From: the human T2T-CHM13v2.0 reference genome, Homo sapiens
NCBI RefSeq assembly: GCF_009914755.1
Contig: NC_060932.1
DNA: 64,000 nt
Direction: 5' to 3' (one strand)
In this document: positions 14,931-62,407 of the stretch, piece by piece
Position numbering within the stretch: position 1 is the stretch's first letter
Layout: every line of letters begins with the position of its first letter
The notes under the pieces: model-generated
Told to the model about the DNA's origin: nothing
Database searches by the model: none
What the model saw: only the letters and a program-made list of their open reading frames with translations
Made by a program: the position numbers and the translations under genes

Positions 14931-17900
14931 ATTCTTACAATTTTTAGAGTAGTTAATTCTGAAGATCAAATAACTAATAAATGTTGAAACTGCAATTCAA
15001 GCCCAAACAATTTAGGAGACTAAATTTAAGAGTCAAATATATAGATGGTATCTCAGTAGTTGGAATGTTATATATTTTGAAAAAATGACAGATTTTTTTG
15101 CAGACCTTTTCTTTAACATGGTATCTATATGGTGAAAAACTAACTTGAAAAACTGATACAAAACTGGATAATGGAAAACATTGAGCACCATGCAAAGACT
15201 GTGAGATTTAGGACTAATTTTCTCCATGAGCAAAAGAAGCATTAAAGACCTTTTTAACAGTGGTATGACTTTGGATATTAATGTAGTTCATTTTGGATTG
15301 ATGCTATTGATGAGCAGTAAAATGTTGAAAATTGAAATGCAGAAGAACACTCAAGAAGGTATAGAAATAGGCATATGGTAGGCATATAGATGTAGTAGGC
15401 TTGGCTTTAATGTGTCAAAAAAAAAAAAAAAAGTCCTGGGATAGGAATCCATGTCCGTCTCATCACAAAACCTGGACCCTTAAATACAATCACTACCACA
15501 CACGATATGGTACAAAGACAGAATTTGTGAGAGACAGTAAGATACGGTGTTGAATAGTATTGCGTTTGCAATATACTTTATAGTTCAAAAACTTGTTCTA
15601 TTTTCAAACTTGTTAAATAAATATGCCAATTAAAAATAGTTTGTAAAGCTCATTTGGGTAATACAGCCAGAAAGAGGAAATTACTAATTCAGTGAACACA
15701 TAGAATAACTGATGTAATTTTAAAATCCAAGCAAAGATGCCCATCAGTAACAAGAAATTTTCCAAACTAAGGAACACACTGAAAGTTTAAAATTTGTATT
15801 ATGAAATTCACTTACCTAGAAGTAGCTGTTGAATTTTTGAAGCCAGCTTGATTATCAGAGAAAATTACTTCAGTGTGAACATTTTTTTTAAAAAAAGGGA
15901 AGGGAAGTAAATATGAAGTAAAGAAAGGCCTGGAAATAAAGGAAGAAGAGAATTTTTGAGAGACTGAAGGAAGAGGAAGGAAGCCATTAATGAGTCATTA
16001 CTCTTTCAACAAAAACATAACTACATAGTTGGAGCTTAGTGATCAACTTGTGTTATATGGAATCATAACATTCCATGTTCCCACCAGTAAATATAATCAC
16101 CAAAAAAATAGGAAATGGTTATTTTGGATCAATCATCTCCAGAGTAAAACATACTTATTTTATAATCAGGTCCTGTTTTAGAAGTTGAGAAAACAGAAGT
16201 GAATACCAATGGATTACTGATCTATATTATATTATAATCAAATGAGGGAGAAGGAGTAGGGAATTAAATATCAGTAGTATTTTCAATCAGTACCTAGAGA
16301 GAGCTATGGGAGGAAGTAAACATCTTCTTTGTTAAAAGCAAAAATCACATCCTTTACTCTGTAATCTCTAGCATAGACTTTCTGTGTATGGTTGTTCAAT
16401 ATATACTTGCTGAATTTAATCAGATTAATGTGATTTAGAACATGGCAATATCAATAAACTAATGTCGGGATTCAAAATTGTGGCATTCATATCTCTGAGT
16501 AAACTCCAGAAAAGAGGATACAATTTGTGTTATGGGTATCTGGTTTATTTCTGAAATTTGAGATCACATTATTGACATAATATTTACTACATAGCCATAT
16601 AGGACTGTTTTTACCCTTTTTTCATCTCCTTGCTCTCTGTATATCACTTGGCAGAATGCAGCCCCAGGAGCAGTTTTCTATAACAACTTTCAATTCAATT
16701 CTACTTTATCAACAAAATATTTTGAGTTTCAAGGCAGAACTTTGTACTATACAGTCTAACAAATGATCTCCATTTTCAAGTTTATTGGCAACTTGTAACC
16801 ACTGACTCAGCATAACTATTCATCATCCTTTCTTATGAGTGAGCTTTCTGAATGCAGTTATCAGCATATGGCAGATTCTATATGACTGCTTCAAGGGCTT
16901 TTGTAGAGGTTTGAGCTGTTCCACATTTGTGTCTCTTCTCTGGATGCATACATTAACAAATGATGCAGTGAGCTTTCAAGGGCTGGGTTGGAATCACTTA
17001 TTGCTCCACATTTTTCATTTTACCAGAAGCTTAAATGTCAAAAGAAATGTTCTCCACCATATAATCAAATTTTATTAAGGTGAAACACTTTTCTGATGAT
17101 GAGTATATTCAAGTATATTCAAGAGGGATTCTTTCCTATTAAAACTATTTGAAAAAAATTACATCAGTTATTTATTTAGATTTTAAAAGATTCATAGCTT
17201 ATGTCTTTTTAGGGACATTGTTATTTTGGGTTATAAGTTTACGGCCAATTTGACATATTTCTGCGTTTATTTTATTTTAAAGTTCCTGAGAACATAGGTG
17301 ATAATTACAAAATTGTGGTACCACTAAAAGCAAATTAGAGAGAATGACCACCTTGGAAGATAAGTAGTATGTCAATAATATTAAATAAAGCAGATATTTA
17401 AAAATCTTTGAAAATACATTGTGCATTCAGTAAACAGTTGTTGTATAACACTACAATAGTAATTTATTATTTTCTCCTGTAGTATTTCATGCCTTCTATA
17501 AACTCTAATACTATCATCATGCTAAAGGCAGTTTTTATCATGCATGCAAATGTATATCATATATATGTAATATACAAACATGTATATATTGAACATAACA
17601 TTACTTTCAGATACCTACATTTAATAATCAAATTTGATTATAGGGAACAACTTTCTACTTTTCACTACTTTGCAATATAGGGAGATTATAGGAATGAACT
17701 TGGAACAAGATTTCTGGTTACAAATTAGAAACATTTAATTTCAGCTTTACAGTAAGTCAATAGCAAATAATTTTAATATGCATGAAAAGCTCTTAGTACT
17801 GCACAGGCGCTAGATTTATACTTCCCGAGGCGTGAAAGGAAATTGGTCCCTAAATGGATTGTTTAAATTTAAAGGGTTTTTGTTCCAACAAGGACATTAG

Positions 17901-18410
17901 CTTTTCAAATAAATAATATGGATTTTAACCCTTAGAGTGAAAGTTGAAAGTTAAATAGCTCTGAGCCTAATGAGCTCCTGTATGAGTGACCCAAATATAG
18001 AAAATGGTTTGGCAGATTCGGTAGCTTATGATTGTCTTTGCGACTAGATACTAAACCAGTTTACCAGTACATGATGGTCTTATCATATCTGTTTTCAGTA
18101 ACGGGTAAAGGATTTCAATGACCATTCAAATTTTTTTGATTTTGTTTTATTTTACAAAGAATTACTTTTGATGAAATAAAATATCAAGTAATCAGTCACG
18201 TATTTTAAACACCATGTCGTATACTAAAATACATATGTTCTCAAACATGTGGGTATACGCATGAAACATCTCCAAAAAGAAAACAAAACCCTTAGAGGAA
18301 CAGAATGTGGGAACTGGAGAAATGTTTCAAAACGATGTGTTACTGTCTATTCTCATTTAAATTCCAAATTATGTACACTCTGCACTCTTAAAAGAAATAA
18401 TTATAGTTTT

Positions 18411-18592
18411 ACTATATATTTTATCTACCCTTTTCCCATTGGCATACCTAGTATGCACTTTCTCTAAAATAATTTGAAACAAGTTTTCCTATTTAAATTT
18501 CTTCAGCGAGATTTGTTCTACTTCTATGTGTTAATTCTCTTGACAGTTCAATTATGTCAAATACAACTATCTAATACTAAAGATAATACCTT
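18411..18592 (+). repeat. Donor copy of a 182-bp local duplication
   Basis: Matches 19474-19655 except for 3 substitutions. Confidence 0.97.
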
Positions 18593-19425
18593 AGTCTTGT
18601 GGCATGGTACGTATGCTAAAATCTCAAGCTCTTTCACGCCCTTATGATATATATATTCCTTATGATAGCCCCTTTAGGGAATGAGTCATATCATTGCCTG
18701 TGAAATGCTTTAAAAATCTGAGGATAATAAAAAATAGGTTTTAATTGTGTAATTGACAACAGAAAGCAAATCACATTTTTAAAATCTAATGGTACCCATA
18801 CAAAATGAGGCTAGTGAAAATTTAAGTTAGAAAGCTCAGTTGTTTGGATTAGTCAAGACACATGTATAACAAATAGTAACATTTCCAAATTAAGGAACCT
18901 ATCCTGTCAACTATTTGCACCCCCAACGGAGAAAAATATTTACAGCGGTAATAAGAGAGTGAAGAAATGTTAGGAGAAAAACAGTTCTGTTTAGGAATAA
19001 TCGAAGCACAGCCTGGAATAGCTGTGCTCCTCATTTCATGTGATACTTTCAACTTTTGTCCATAAAACACTTTACTAGGTTTTGTTTTTATTTCCTACTT
19101 TACCTGTGCTTCACTAATTTATTTGTTATATGTTCTCAGATATGTATGTATCTTTGTAAAACACATGGTTTTATTTCACATGTATGATTCATGTAAGTGT
19201 ATTTGCTATTAACTCATTCACTCCCATTTTACCTAACATTGTATTAAATTCTGTCTATGTTGCTATACACAAACTAGTTATTTGTGTTGTGTTCAATAGT
19301 GTGTATATATCACATTTCATTTGTTCATTTCCCTAATGATGAACACATAGGTTGCTTTCAGCTCTTCGTTAGTATATGTTGGAAAGAATATTCCCATACA
19401 AGCTTTTGGACTAATGTGAGTTGGT

Positions 19426-19428
19426 ATA

Positions 19429-19472
<44 letters not shown>
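19426..19472. repeat. (TA)n microsatellite, continuing at 19662-19682 after the insertion
   Basis: Direct. Confidence 0.95.
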
Positions 19473-19473
<1 letters not shown>

Positions 19474-19475
<2 letters not shown>

Positions 19476-19655
19476 TATATATTTTATCTACCCTTTTCCC
19501 ATTGGCATACCTAGTATGCACTTTCTCTAAAACAATTTGAAACAAGTTTTCCTATTTAAATTTCTTCAGTGAGATTTGTTCTACTTCTATGTGTTAATTC
19601 TCTTGACAGTTCAATTATGTCAAATACAACTACCTAATACTAAAGATAATACCTT
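19474..19655 (+). repeat. Inserted copy of 18411-18592 inside the (TA)n tract
   Basis: 182 bp, 3 mismatches, followed by a 9-bp fold-back. Confidence 0.97.
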
Positions 19656-21614
19656 TATCTTTATATATATATATGTATATATGGAATATAGAGATTACAA
19701 TATATATGAATATTGAGTATATATATGTACTAGCATATTATTGTATTATATAATTTTCTAATTGTTACCAATTTGACGGTCCTAAAAAAAGAGTTTAAAT
19801 TTTTAAAATTTGCAATTATCTAGTACTAGCAATTAAACCCATCTCAGTTATGCTTTTCTTTCCGTGAATTGAATATCCAAGTCCTTTTTGTATTTCCCAA
19901 TTAGATATCAATATATTTCTTGCTGATTTGCAGAAATTCTTATAAATTCTAGATATCAGCATATGCACTATATAAAATAAACTTTATGTATTAAAACATC
20001 TCTAAAATGCATATGTATTTTACATGCATACAATTGGCCATAGATGTTCTTACAGATATCACTTTTATATCTAAGTAATATTAAATTGATGCTTTCAATA
20101 TTTGTAAATTAAACATTCTAAAGGATAATAAAAATGTTGTACCATAATTCATTTAATATACATTTTTAAATTTTTTGATGTTACATAAAACAATGATACT
20201 TCTAAAAGGTCAAATTCATGTTAAAGCTGATAAAATATAGTTTTACTTAATGGTTTTAGTTACTGAAAGTTTTTTTTCTAAAGTGTATCATTTGTCATTT
20301 AATTGACATTTTGTATCTTTGTTAACAAAAAATACTTAATTTCAAGGTAATAAAACCCGGGTTTCATTTTCTTTTATATGCTTTTGAAATCTTTTGGGAT
20401 TCTGTTGCAAATTCTAGATCATAGATATTTTCTCCTCCTACACTTTCTTCTGTTAGTCTTATAATTTCAAATATCTAATTTAGACAATCTCCTCTAATAA
20501 ATGCTATTCAATTTTATGGTGCAAAGTAAAAACATAGCTTTATATATTTTAATGAGCTGTTTGTACAGGGATATAGGCAATGAACCAATATTAACTGCAA
20601 CATATAATGAACAGTCCTTCCCATTGAATTATTATACCGCACTTACCATTTATAATAAAATGTGTTGCTAACCTCTACAGTCTCTTTCATAGATCTGTGT
20701 TTCAAATCTTATAAATCTATCTTAATGCTGTTTTCAAAACTACTCTACATTAGAATTTGATTGTGTAATTTTCCCCCTCACTTCTTTATTCCTAGACCTC
20801 AACTTAGTTACCAGTAGGAATCCATTTCCACAAAAGTTTTAGAACCTATTTATTTCATTTTACAAAATAAATTGTAGGAATTCAGATTGGGATTCCACTA
20901 AAATTATATTAAAAACTGTTGCCCCATCTGTCATAATATTTATCTCTCAATTTTGTCATATCTTCTTTAAATGTTTTTATATAGATGATCAGAATTGATA
21001 TTTTGCTGTCTTTTTAAAGGATACCTTATTTTATATTTTATTTTCTAGCTGTGCATTTATGATACAGAAAAAAAATTGTTATCTATTTTGCAAGTGTATC
21101 TCTCCAGCAAAATTTGCTTAATCTACTATTAGTATAAATAGATTATGTTTCATTCTCTTTGGCATTCCATATTAATAATTATATCATATAAGTTAAATAG
21201 TTGTATTTCTTCCTCTCTAATTCTTAGGCATCTTTTTTGGTATGTTATTTTAACTATAATATCCACAATAATGTTACATACCAAAAGTAAATATATTGTA
21301 TTTTATTGTTTTTTTTCCTTCACCCAAATAAGGAAACACATGTGAACTTCCTTCATTAAGTATAATATTTACTGTAAATTTTTCATAGCTAGTTCATTAC
21401 ATAGAAAAGTTTGCTTGTGATTTCTAGTTCTCATTTTCTAGAAACAAGTAGATAATGAATACTTGCAGATTTTTTGAGGTATAATAAAATTGTTTTGTTA
21501 GTAAATATGATGAATCACATTGTTAAAATTTTTAATGTTATTCTTGGTAAATATAGCATACATACAAGTAAATGTATATAGCCCATATTTAATATTTAAA
21601 AATAACAAAACAAA

Positions 21615-23400
21615 GGAGGTCCTGCTTCCAATAATAGCATAGTAGATTTTATTAAACAAACTCTCTTATAGGTAAAATATGAACTATAAGCCTAACATAC
21701 AATAAAAATTGACAATGGAAAGAAAACAAAGACCAGAAACTAAAGAGTACTAGATCCTTGAAAGAAGAGAATGGAGAGAGATCTGTATTTTCAATCAGCA
21801 CAAATTCCAGTTCACTAAATATAAGATAGCTAGGATTTAAACAAAAATTTGCAACCTTTTTGGCTTGAATAGTTAAAGAATAAAGTTTGCATTTATAAGA
21901 TTGAGAGGAAACAGAAAGATAACCCAGATATAGAGAGTGAGCCCTAAATCTACATACAAACTTCACTCAAATCTTTGTTTTTCTCTTCATTTGGTATTTG
22001 CAAGGGACCCACTGATAAGCAACAGCTGGAAGGCTGAAAGAGCAGCAGTAGAGATTTCAGCACCTGCCAACCAACCAGATTTCTCAGTCTGAAGAACACA
22101 GAAAAGAATGATAGTAAACACACAAATCCAGTGATTTATGAAACAATCTGAAGCAGTCTAACATTTATCTGATTAGCATCCCAGAAAGAAATGAGAACTA
22201 GAGTGGGGAAAAGCCATTCCTTAATAAGTAATGACAAACACTTCTGATATTTGAGGAAAATTATAAAATTACAGATCCAAGTATACAAATAATAGAAAGA
22301 TAATGACACCTAAGTACAACAGTCATACAGCTGATAACCAAGGATAAAATGAAAATCTTGAAAGCTGCCAGAGAAAATGACACATCACATAAAGGGAAAC
22401 ATCTATATTTCTGTAGCTAACTTCCCATTAAAAATAATGAAGAGCTGGCCTCCATGAATCACCCTTGTAATTCCAATGTTTTGGGAGGCCAAGGCAGGAA
22501 GGTCACTTGAGGCCAAGAGTTCGAGACCAGCCTGGGCAACATAGTAAGATCCCATCTCCATGAAAAAAATTAAAAATTAGCTAGGCATGGTGGTGTGCCT
22601 GTAGTCCTAGCTATTTGAGAGGCTGGGGGCAAAGGATTGCTTGGGCCCAGGAGTTTGAGGATGCAGTGAGCTATGATTTTGCCACTGCAGTCCAGCATGG
22701 ATGACAAAGCGAGACCCTGTCTCTAAAAAAATTTTTTTAATTAAAAATGGAGACTGGAAGACAATGGAATAGCATTAAGTTTTGAATCTCTGAAAAATTC
22801 ATGTGAACCCAAAATTGTACATAACAAAATATATTTCAAAAATAAAGGTTAAAAATTTAATATTACAAAATGAAAGAATTTGTTGTCAGGAAACTTGAAC
22901 TTCAAAAATGCTGAAGAAAGCCATTCTGGATAAAGATAAATGATATTAGAATAAAATTTATATCTACAGAATACAAGGAGAAATGTCAGAAAGGATAAAT
23001 CTGGGGAAAATGTAAATATTATATATATATAGTTTCTTAATTTTGTTCAAAGCAAAACTTTTTGTGCAATAATGTGAAATTTATTATGAATGTAGATATA
23101 ATATGTGGGACAACAATAGTACAAAATATGAATGCAAATAAAATAGTATTGTTTCAAAGTTGTAACATTTTATATAAAGTCATTCAATTTTAACTCTAAA
23201 TAAACTGTGAAAAATTAAAGATAACTTTATCATAATAATCATTAATGTAATAATGCAAAAACACAAGTCTTGGCAGATTCAATATGACTGTTAGACCCAA
23301 TACTTTCTTGAAAATACAAACTTTATATGTAAAAACACAGAAGTATTGAAAGTAAAAGGATGGAAACATATGCACCATGCAAGAATTAAGCATAAGAACA
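21615..23400 (+). mobile_element. Ancient L1M 5' region/ORF1/inter-ORF fragment
   Basis: gaaaatcttgaaagctgccagagaaa, cacataaagggaaac, gaaagtaaaaggatggaaa. Confidence 0.7.
22447..22732 (+). mobile_element. AluJ
   Basis: ggtcacttgaggccaagagttcgagaccagcctgggcaacatag; ggattgcttgggcccaggag. Confidence 0.93.
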
Positions 23401-39676: not shown

Positions 39677-40185
39677 ATGTTCTGGAAATATCTATTAGGG
39701 CTATTTGGTCTATAGTACAGATTAAGTCTGATGTTTCTTTGTTGGTTTTCTGATTGGATGATATGTCCAATCCTGAAAGTGGGGTGTTGAAGTCTCCAGC
39801 TATTTTGCATTGGGGTCTATCTCTCTGTCTCCTGAGTTGTAATAATATTTGCTTTATATATCTGAGTGCTCTAGCATTGGGTGCATATATATTTACAATT
39901 TTTTTTTGCAAACATTTATTTTTTTCTTAAAGTATAATATATTTACAATTGTTATACCCTCTTGCTGAATTGACCCCTTTATCATTATATAATGACCTTG
40001 TTTGTCTCTTTTAATAGTTTTTGTCTAGATATCTATTTTTTTCTGATATGCGTAGCTACTCCTCCTTGTTTTTAATTCTGTTTGCATCCAATATATTTTT
40101 CCATCCCTTTATTTTCAGTCTATGTGTATTTTTATAACATCCTGATGGCTGCAGGATGTTATAACATGTGCAGGATACACATGTT
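39677..40185 (+). repeat. Templated insertion: 460-bp copy of 42114-42570 plus a patchwork junction
   Basis: 3 substitutions and one 3-bp indel versus the donor; junction built from the donor flank; ATGTT at both ends. Confidence 0.96.
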
Positions 40186-41859: not shown

Positions 41860-43325
41860 TTTTCTTCTTAATTTTTTCAGTGACCCACGGGTCATTCAAT
41901 AACATATTGTTTAATTTTCATGTGTTTGTATAGTTTCCAAATTACCTTTTATTATTGATTTCCAGTTATATTCCATTGTTGTCAGAGAAGATACTTGATA
42001 TAGTTTCAAATTTAAAAAAAAAATTTAAGACTTGTTTTGTGGCCTAATATATATCCTTGAGAATGGTCAATGTGCTAAGAGAAGACATGTGTATCCTGCA
42101 GCCATCAGATGAAATGTTCTGGAAATATCTATTAGGGCTATTTGGTCTATAGTACAGATTAAGTCTGATGTTTCTTTGTTGGTTTTCTGATTGGATGATA
42201 TGTCCAATCCTGAAAGTGGGGTGTTGAAGTCTCCAGCTATTTTGCATTGGGGTCTATCTCTCTGTCTCCTGAGTTGTAATATTTGCTTTATATATCTGAG
42301 TGCTCTAGCATTGGGTGCATATATATTTACAATTTTTTTTTGCAAACATCTATTTTTTTCTTAAAGTATAATATATTTACAATTGTTATACCCTCGTGCT
42401 GAATTGACCCCTTTATCATTATATAATGACCTTGTTTGTCTCTTTTAATAGTTTTTGTCTAGATATCTATTTTTTTCTGATATGCGTAGCTACTCCTCCT
42501 TGTTTTTAATTCTGTTTGCATGCAATATATTTTTCCATCCCTTTATTTTCAGTCTATGTGTATTTTTATACACATAGACTGTTTCTAGCAGGCAATAGAT
42601 AGTTGGGTCTTGTTTTCATCCATTCAACAAACCTGTCTTTTGATTGAAGAGTTTAGCCCATTCACATTCAATGTTATTGTTCATAATAAGGACTTACTAC
42701 TACCATTTTCTAAACTGTTTTTTAGCTGTTTTGTGGTCTTCTCTTTCTTCCTTTGTTTCTGTGAAAGTAGATTTTTCTGGTGTTATGTTTTATTTTCTTG
42801 CTTTTCATTTTTTGTGTATCTGTTGCAGGCATTTTGATTTGTGGTTACCATGAGGCTACATGTGGTTATCATAAATAATATCTTATAACCCATTGTAAGA
42901 ATCTGATAGGATTCTAAATTCCTTCTCTATGTTATCTTGAATTTGTCTGAACCTCCTCAAAACAGCTGTTTTGAATTCTCTGTCTGAAAGCTCACATATC
43001 TGTCACTCTGGGATTAGTCACTGGTTCCTTATTTAGTACATTTGGTGAGGTCATATTCTTATGTATAGTATTAATGCTTGTGGATGGTTTTTTGATGTTG
43101 GGCATTGAAGAGTTAGGTTATTTATTGTAATCTTTGCATACTGGGCTTGTTTGCACTTGTCTATCTTGAGAAAGATTTCCAAGCGTTCAAAGGGAATTGA
43201 ATATTGTGATCTAAGTATTTGGTCTCTGCAGCCATATCTGCATTAGGGAGCACCCCAAACCCAATAATGCTGTAAAGCTTGCAGACTATTAGAAGTATTG
43301 CCTTGGTGGTGTTTAATAAGATCCA
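41860..43325 (-). mobile_element. L1MA-type fragment (ORF2 endonuclease region, inter-ORF, ORF1/5' part)
   Basis: Minus-strand ORF 42067-42345 carries endonuclease motifs NIYAPN and AGDFNTPLS; collinear L1 sequence continues. Confidence 0.9.

Positions 43326-61637: not shown

Positions 61638-62407
<770 letters not shown>

What the first reader, a model, noticed from the sequence alone, without database searches (positions are those of the whole stretch)
18411..19682. 182 bp of unique sequence copied into a (TA)n tract 1 kb downstream, ending in a snap-back hairpin
Seen: 19474-19655 equals 18411-18592 with 3 substitutions, and it splits a (TA)n run (19426-19472 and 19662-19682). The copy starts at an actatata-like microhomology. 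It ends in a 9-bp inverted repeat, taaagataa-tacct-ttatcttta (19641-19663), that is absent from the donor. Known: long (TA)n tracts form cruciforms and are breakage-prone. Inference: a break in the TA repeat was patched by copying nearby DNA followed by fold-back synthesis.
Basis: partly seen in the sequence, partly recalled or inferred. Interest (0 to 1): 0.7.

Follow-up and report, generated by a model that had tools for sequence, protein, structure and literature searches.

The report
Nearby DNA patch inside TA repeat
A 182-base piece of otherwise unique human DNA has a second copy about 1 kb away, splitting a TA repeat and ending in a small fold-back; it is likely an ordinary scar of an old germline break repair, a known kind, and whether TA repeats attract such scars is untested.

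Summary
Observation confirmed. 19474-19655 copies 18411-18592 (offset 1063, 3 C/T differences). The donor has no other match in the genome. The copy splits a TA tract and ends in a perfect 9-bp fold-back absent from the donor (simulated P 0.003-0.006).

Size, distance and junctions fit the published class of repair-mediated duplications (Pace 2009: 824 in human, mean 162 bp, mean distance 1.2 kb). The right junction meets the published snap-back SD-MMEJ criteria.

That the TA tract caused the break is not shown. Its pure run is 19 units (cruciform threshold above 22), it grew from a 6-nt seed at an unknown time, and a similar patch lies at 39677 with no TA tract. A pilot found one more patch of this anatomy among 90 TA tracts (chr2, 64 bp, 10-bp fold-back) and none among 90 incompletely tested CA tracts: suggestive, not significant. 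No ape sequence was available. New member of a known kind.

The parts
18411..18592 (+). Donor (template) segment, in single-copy DNA
   Evidence: no other genomic match than the copy
19283..19368 (+). Best-conserved piece of an old dispersed repeat on the left of the TA tract (L1-like 3' region; family label recalled, no repeat library on hand); weaker similarity spans about 19000-19424
   Evidence: many dispersed matches at 75-84%; left flank scores above shuffles against 6 of 6 paralogues; profile match E 4e-20 (the paralogues were chosen by their match to this stretch)
19425..19472 (+). Left TA arm: 9-nt run, G at 19434, pure 38-nt run (19 units)
19425..19441 (+). First copy of the G-interrupted 17-mer (possible target-site duplication)
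   Evidence: exact match to 19666-19682; doubled in 0 of 90 other TA tracts, present once in 8 of 90
19473..19473 (+). One extra C at the left junction; readable as priming on the donor's TA, one base added, then a 2-nt slip (inferred)
19474..19655 (+). Acceptor: 182-bp direct copy of the donor, 3 transitions (1.65%)
19641..19663 (+). Perfect 9-bp inverted repeat with 5-nt loop spanning the right junction
   Evidence: P 0.0056 and 0.0028 under two nulls; 9 bp or more at 1 of 60 TA and 0 of 60 CA tract edges
19656..19661 (+). 6-nt filler, reverse complement of 19643-19648
19662..19682 (+). Right TA arm: 13-nt run, G at 19675, 7-nt run; holds the second 17-mer (19666-19682)

Best explanation
The 182 bases at 19474-19655 are a copy of 18411-18592 that was likely laid down in one germline repair event at a break in the TA tract. 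Inferred steps: (1) a 3' end ending in TA annealed weakly at the TA-like start of the donor 1063 bp upstream; (2) 182 nt were copied; (3) the released end folded back on itself (1-bp primer, 5-nt loop) and was extended 8 nt until it ended in TA; (4) that TA annealed in the tract on the far side of the break, upstream of its G interruption, so part of the tract was copied twice. The left arm probably lengthened later by slippage. The fold-back step is the kind ascribed to polymerase theta (SD-MMEJ); the enzyme is inferred, not shown. The product is a repair-mediated duplication with no sign of function. That an extruded TA cruciform caused the break is about an even bet (about 0.45).
For: Single ungapped copy with 3 differences. 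Donor flanks are single-copy, while the copy interrupts a microsatellite and carries filler at both ends. Fold-back P 0.003-0.006; it meets all three SD-MMEJ criteria of PMC5728401 (motif of 4 bp or more, within 30 bp, primer and microhomology of 1 bp or more; passages). Length 182 and spacing about 1 kb sit at the centre of the RD class (mean 162 bp, peak about 1.2 kb; microhomology + target-site duplication + filler in 2 of 39 proximal cases). No poly(A) tail. The doubled 17-mer is rare in background (0 of 90). PMC13645644 reports small duplications (<5 kb) enriched at TA-rich fragile regions after FANCM loss and nearly absent under polymerase theta inhibition alone (section 10). An independent locus with the same anatomy exists at G000:C2:210.64 Mb: a 64-bp inverted copy from 3.6 kb away between two TA runs, with a 10-bp fold-back at its junction.
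Against: No outgroup sequence, so the empty site is not seen. The fold-back needs a 1-bp primer; the donor offers a 2-bp register that would give one T fewer. 4 of the 6 filler bases also match the donor's continuation (P 0.021), so part of the hairpin pre-existed. Paralogues of the host repeat did not align significantly to the right flank (p 0.09-0.48 in 6 of 6), so continuity across the site was not shown that way. The pure TA run is 19 units, under the 'above 22' threshold, though the two inner runs joined would make about 25 units. A shorter 11-mer version of the motif is doubled in 7 of 90 TA tracts, so slippage can double such motifs. Sequence alone cannot tell break repair from a template switch at a stalled fork.
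Confidence: 0.62

Rival explanations
1. Template switching at a stalled fork without a two-ended break (FoSTeS/MMBIR type): the nascent strand slipped back 1063 bp, copied 182 nt, folded back and rejoined upstream of where it left.
For: Direct orientation and re-copying of part of the host tract (doubled 17-mer) are what a nascent-strand jump gives; same topology as a 'cycle' that re-replicates host sequence (PMC7025897, passages).
Against: The terminal fold-back that stops as soon as a TA end is made fits SD-MMEJ end-joining. The chr2 and 39677 cases include inverted pieces and several short templated bits, more like repeated end-priming.
Confidence: 0.22
2. Two separate events: a 1063-bp tandem duplication (18411-19473) followed by deletion of most of the second copy between 18593-equivalent and the TA tract.
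For: Gives the same order of pieces, including a doubled TA tract with its G.
Against: Needs two rare events with breakpoints at the same tract. Does not explain the fold-back filler. No other remnant of the second copy.
Confidence: 0.08
3. The copy is a real patch but ran 6 nt further (to 18598), and the perfect hairpin arose later, by two substitutions or by template-switch correction of the donor's imperfect palindrome; the TA tract expanded afterwards and played no causal part.
For: 18595-18598 match in register. Paralogues show only a 6-nt TATATA at the site in 3 of 6. A TA-free patch exists in the same window.
Against: Two adjacent changes in 6 nt against 3 in 182 is unlikely by plain substitution; a perfect 9-bp stem is rarer by chance (P about 0.005) than a 4-of-6 match (P 0.021).
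Confidence: 0.06
4. Assembly artefact at a hard microsatellite, or an L1-mediated retro-copy.
For: Long TA tracts are hard to assemble (own knowledge); a 17-nt target-site-like duplication is in the L1 range (class 1 TSIP features, PMC5110952 abstract).
Against: Three fixed differences from the donor and new junction bases argue against a mis-join; no poly(A) tail; in PMC2671141, 0 of 39 proximal duplications had poly(A/T).
Confidence: 0.02

Closest known systems
Repair-mediated duplication (RD), Pace, Sen, Batzer, Feschotte 2009, PMC2671141 (read: parts 1-5 of 8 of the text; Table S1 part 1 and two row searches)
   Same: Single-copy donor within 5 kb, 50-619 bp, non-tandem, filler, possible microhomology and target-site duplication, no poly(A); 182 bp and about 1 kb are close to the class means.
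   Different: That text has no occurrence of 'microsatellite', 'simple repeat', 'hairpin', 'inverted repeat' or 'dinucleotide', and it invoked SDSA. Here the acceptor is a TA tract and the filler is a fold-back. No chr8 row of the <5 kb sheet had coordinates starting 1154-1162 (the hg18 range is my estimate from recalled offsets).
Snap-back SD-MMEJ junctions (polymerase theta type), PMC5728401 (passages)
   Same: Insertion becomes part of a new inverted repeat; 1-nt primers are reported; synthesis ends on a new microhomology.
   Different: Those are few-base inserts templated within 30 bp of a cut in Drosophila; here the fold-back caps a 182-nt copy from 1 kb away.
MMEJ-dependent small duplications at TA-repeat breaks on ecDNA, PMC13645644 (section 10 and passages)
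   Same: TA repeat, duplication under 5 kb, templated insertion ascribed to polymerase theta.
   Different: Somatic, circular DNA, cell lines; 'germline' does not occur in that text. This one lies in a chromosome of the reference genome and is about 1.6% diverged.
Cycles of templated insertions / local 2-jumps, PMC7025897 (passages)
   Same: Copy-and-paste path that leaves and returns, re-replicating a piece of the host site.
   Different: Somatic, far larger, usually templates from other chromosomes.
Class 2 templated sequence insertion polymorphisms, PMC5110952 (abstract and part 1 of 4)
   Same: DNA patch at a break, similar size (experimental median 191 bp).
   Different: Donor is distant there; here it is 1 kb away, and polymorphism is untested.

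Membership tests
Repair-mediated duplication (PMC2671141) | Insert of 50 bp or more found at only one other place in the genome | tested here: met
   182 bp; 2 matches in G000
Repair-mediated duplication (PMC2671141) | Donor on the same chromosome, more than 50 bp and less than 5 kb away | tested here: met
   offset 1063, gap 881 bp
Repair-mediated duplication (PMC2671141) | Junction marks: filler, microhomology, deletion or target-site duplication; no poly(A/T) tail | tested here: met
   1-nt and 6-nt filler, TA microhomology at right, doubled 17-mer, no tail
Repair-mediated duplication (PMC2671141) | Acceptor interrupts a transposable element whose two halves join in the family consensus (how the paper found them) | tested here: inconclusive
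   left flank is a dispersed repeat; right flank not significantly similar to 6 of 6 paralogues
Repair-mediated duplication (PMC2671141) | Empty site in an outgroup primate | not testable with these tools
   no other primate genome is held (no relatives)
Snap-back SD-MMEJ junction (PMC5728401) | Repeat motif of 4 bp or more, within 30 bp of the join, with primer and microhomology of 1 bp or more | tested here: met
   9-bp motif 19641-19649, primer 1 bp, microhomology TA; these criteria are loose, and the simulation gives P 0.003-0.006
Snap-back SD-MMEJ junction (PMC5728401) | Dependence on polymerase theta | not testable with these tools
   ancient event; needs cell experiments
Cruciform-forming fragile TA repeat (PMC12972899) | More than 22 uninterrupted units at the time of the break | tested here: inconclusive
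   present pure runs 19 and 6.5 units; about 25 if joined, far fewer if the 17-mer is a target-site duplication; ancestral length unknown
L1-mediated retro-copy (class 1 TSIP) | Poly(A) tail | tested here: not met
   none at either end on either strand

The most novel reading that the evidence does not exclude
TA microsatellites are germline hot spots for locally templated patches capped by fold-backs, so primate genomes keep a datable fossil record of polymerase-theta repair at TA breaks: the heritable counterpart of what was just shown on tumour ecDNA. One in 90 sampled long TA tracts (a lower bound) carried such a patch, against 0.017 expected from the published RD density.
Probability: 0.3. 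Interest if true: 0.58.

Novelty: new member of a known kind. Interest (0 to 1): 0.32.

Why it matters
As a single locus it matters little: a neutral-looking scar in a gene desert, of a class with 824 listed human members. Its value is as a lead. If TA tracts are enriched for such patches, a somatic fragility mechanism (TA cruciform break, then MMEJ duplication) would be shown to shape inherited genomes, and the fold-back junctions would tie the 2009 RD class to polymerase theta rather than plain SDSA. That is directly testable with complete ape genomes.

Tried and rejected
Showing direction by paralogues of the host repeat: the left flank aligns (6 of 6 above shuffles), the right flank does not significantly, so this was inconclusive.

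Local self-comparison of tract flanks: the first filter found no tract-adjacent copy in 30 of 30 TA loci and only a tandem repeat in 1 of 30 CA loci. That filter was too strict (it missed L154). The rerun with masked microsatellites gave 1 of 90 TA (L154, near-tandem, period 92 or less) and 1 of 90 CA (L035, tandem). Neither is a non-tandem patch. The chr2 patch is invisible to this test because its donor is 3.6 kb off.

Spacer searches that found no non-tandem local copy: L022, L010, L154 (TA) and L042, L051 (CA). Not searched genome-wide: L111 (41 bp) and CA spacers L057, L062, L137, L179.

Hairpins within 120 nt of tracts: 9 of 90 TA and 5 of 90 CA loci. Many of the TA ones are microsatellite-derived, so this is not discriminating.

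Other sources for the filler: the only 9-mer match within 17000-22000 is the fold-back template and its donor twin.

Literature: 8 searches listed no paper on germline RDs inside TA tracts or on this locus. The library lacks most subscription papers, and structural-variant call sets in supplements were not seen, so this is not proof of absence.

Full report
Observation. The copy is real. Window 19474-19655 matches 18411-18592 on a single ungapped diagonal (offset 1063) with three differences, all C/T transitions. A search of the whole host genome found the 182 bp in two places only, and the 1.3 kb around the donor has no other match; the tool warns that it skips very common words. The copy lies between two TA arms, 19425-19472 and 19662-19682. 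Divergence is 3 of 182 = 1.65% (95% range 0.34-4.8%). That gives 3.8 My (0.8-11) at the 2.2e-9 rate used in PMC2671141 and 16.5 My (3.4-48) at 0.5e-9, a rate I recall for pedigrees. So the event is likely from the ape era, and not shown to be human-specific.

Right junction. After the copy come 6 new bases (19656-19661) that, with one donor base before and two TA-tract bases after, form a perfect 9-bp inverted repeat of 19641-19649 with a 5-nt loop. A stem this long across the junction arose in 0.56% of simulations with the donor end fixed and 0.28% with random ends, and at 1 of 60 TA and 0 of 60 CA tract edges elsewhere. The stem stops exactly where it yields a TA end. It meets the three SD-MMEJ criteria of PMC5728401, which also reports single-base primers (passages). 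Against: the donor has an imperfect form of the same palindrome, so 4 of the 6 bases also match the donor's continuation (P 0.021).

Left junction and host site. There is no perfect microhomology on the diagonal; one extra C separates the TA run from the copy. This reads as TA priming on the donor, one base added and a 2-nt slip (inference). A G-interrupted 17-mer occurs at the outer end of both arms (19425-19441 = 19666-19682). It was present once in 8 of 90 other long TA tracts and twice in 0 of 90; an 11-mer version was doubled in 7 of 90. I read it as a likely target-site duplication, not a certain one. The left flank is an old dispersed repeat (L1-like by recall). In 3 of 6 paralogues the matching position holds just a 6-nt TATATA, so the tract grew from a short seed at an unknown time. 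The right flank did not align significantly with any of the 6. Direction therefore rests on the junction marks and the split tract, not on a rejoined repeat.

Known class. PMC2671141 describes 824 human repair-mediated duplications with donor within 5 kb, mean length 162 bp, mean distance 1.2 kb, and microhomology, filler, deletion or 4-21 nt target-site duplication at the joins. This locus sits at the centre of that class. I saw no chr8 row of their <5 kb sheet with coordinates starting 1154-1162 (hg18 range estimated from recalled offsets). Their text does not mention microsatellites or hairpins. PMC13645644 links TA-repeat breaks to polymerase-theta-type small duplications on tumour ecDNA.

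Is the TA tract the cause? Not shown. PMC12972899 gives 'above 22 units' for cruciforms in vivo. The pure run here is 19 units; it would be about 25 if the insert simply split one run, and about 20 nt in all if the 17-mer was doubled by the event. A second patch in the same window needs no TA tract: 39677-40136 copies 42114-42570 (3 substitutions and a 3-bp gap in 457 columns). It ends in two inverted 16-mers taken from the donor's left flank (42093-42108, 42085-42100) and a 13-bp fold-back.

Pilot enrichment test. I listed tracts by pattern: GG+(TA)13, 349 matches, and GGTA+(CA)13, 199 matches; 100 rows of each were shown. I took 90 loci of each. For TA: rows 1-30 at 1.5 kb each side, and 60 more at about 350 bp after merging clustered rows and dropping the last 3. 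For CA: likewise, dropping the last 10. One rule for split tracts gave 5 spacers in 90 TA loci and 8 spacers in 7 of 90 CA loci. Of the TA spacers, L032 (G000:C2:210.64 Mb) holds a 64-bp, 63-of-64 identical inverted copy of DNA 3.6 kb upstream. It has a perfect 10-bp fold-back at its junction and a 13-mer found 750 bp upstream, and lies between two TA runs: the same anatomy as this finding. L154 is a near-tandem copy, L010 and L022 are unique, and L111 was too short to search. Of the CA spacers, L035 is a tandem repeat, L042 and L051 have no local copy, and four were not searched genome-wide. So non-tandem patches were 1 of 90 TA against 0 of 90 CA (Fisher p=1). One in 90 exceeds the 0.017 expected from the published density of 0.62 per Mb (P 0.017), but that density is a stated minimum, and at 5-15 per Mb P is 0.13-0.33. 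Two patches in this 64-kb window suggest the true density is higher than published. Patches not flanked by a second run, or with donors out of range, would have been missed in both sets.

Verdict. A real, well-preserved repair-mediated duplication with a snap-back filler: a new member of a known kind. Break repair of the polymerase-theta type is the likeliest route (0.62), fork template switching the main rival (0.22). The bolder idea, that TA tracts are germline hot spots for such patches, has one independent supporting case and remains open (0.3). Ape orthologues and a whole-genome count would settle both questions. Interest 0.32.

Noticed in passing
window 39677-40184 (acceptor) and 42085-42570 (donor): A second, younger-looking local copy: 457 aligned bases with 3 substitutions and a 3-bp gap, offset about 2437, direct. 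The right junction has two inverted 16-mers from the donor's left flank and a 13-bp fold-back; no TA tract. A more elaborate repair patch than the one reported. The copied DNA is L1-like by recall, so the 2009 pipeline would have excluded it.
   Followed up: partly
L032:1370-1502 (G000:C2:210642781-210642913), donor G000:C2:210639231-210639294: Independent TA tract split by a 64-bp inverted local copy with a 10-bp fold-back and further filler; the left TA run follows what looks like an Alu tail (label recalled).
   Followed up: yes
window 18640-18667: A 10-bp direct repeat (18640-18649 = 18658-18667) overlapping and flanking a 10-nt TA run, 50 bp right of the donor's end; a possible small slippage or loop-out scar.
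   Followed up: no
L154:433-568 and L035:1446-1699: Near-tandem and tandem duplications of 60-90 bp units with a TA or CA run between the copies; microsatellites seem to seed such unit duplications in both classes.
   Followed up: partly
window 61803-62124: Tandem array of period 135, 2.4 copies, Alu-like (label recalled): an Alu with an extra monomer-length piece.
   Followed up: no
L084 and L123: Compound TA arrays with short palindromic spacers that form long perfect inverted repeats (stems of 16-31 bp), candidates for strong cruciform formers.
   Followed up: no
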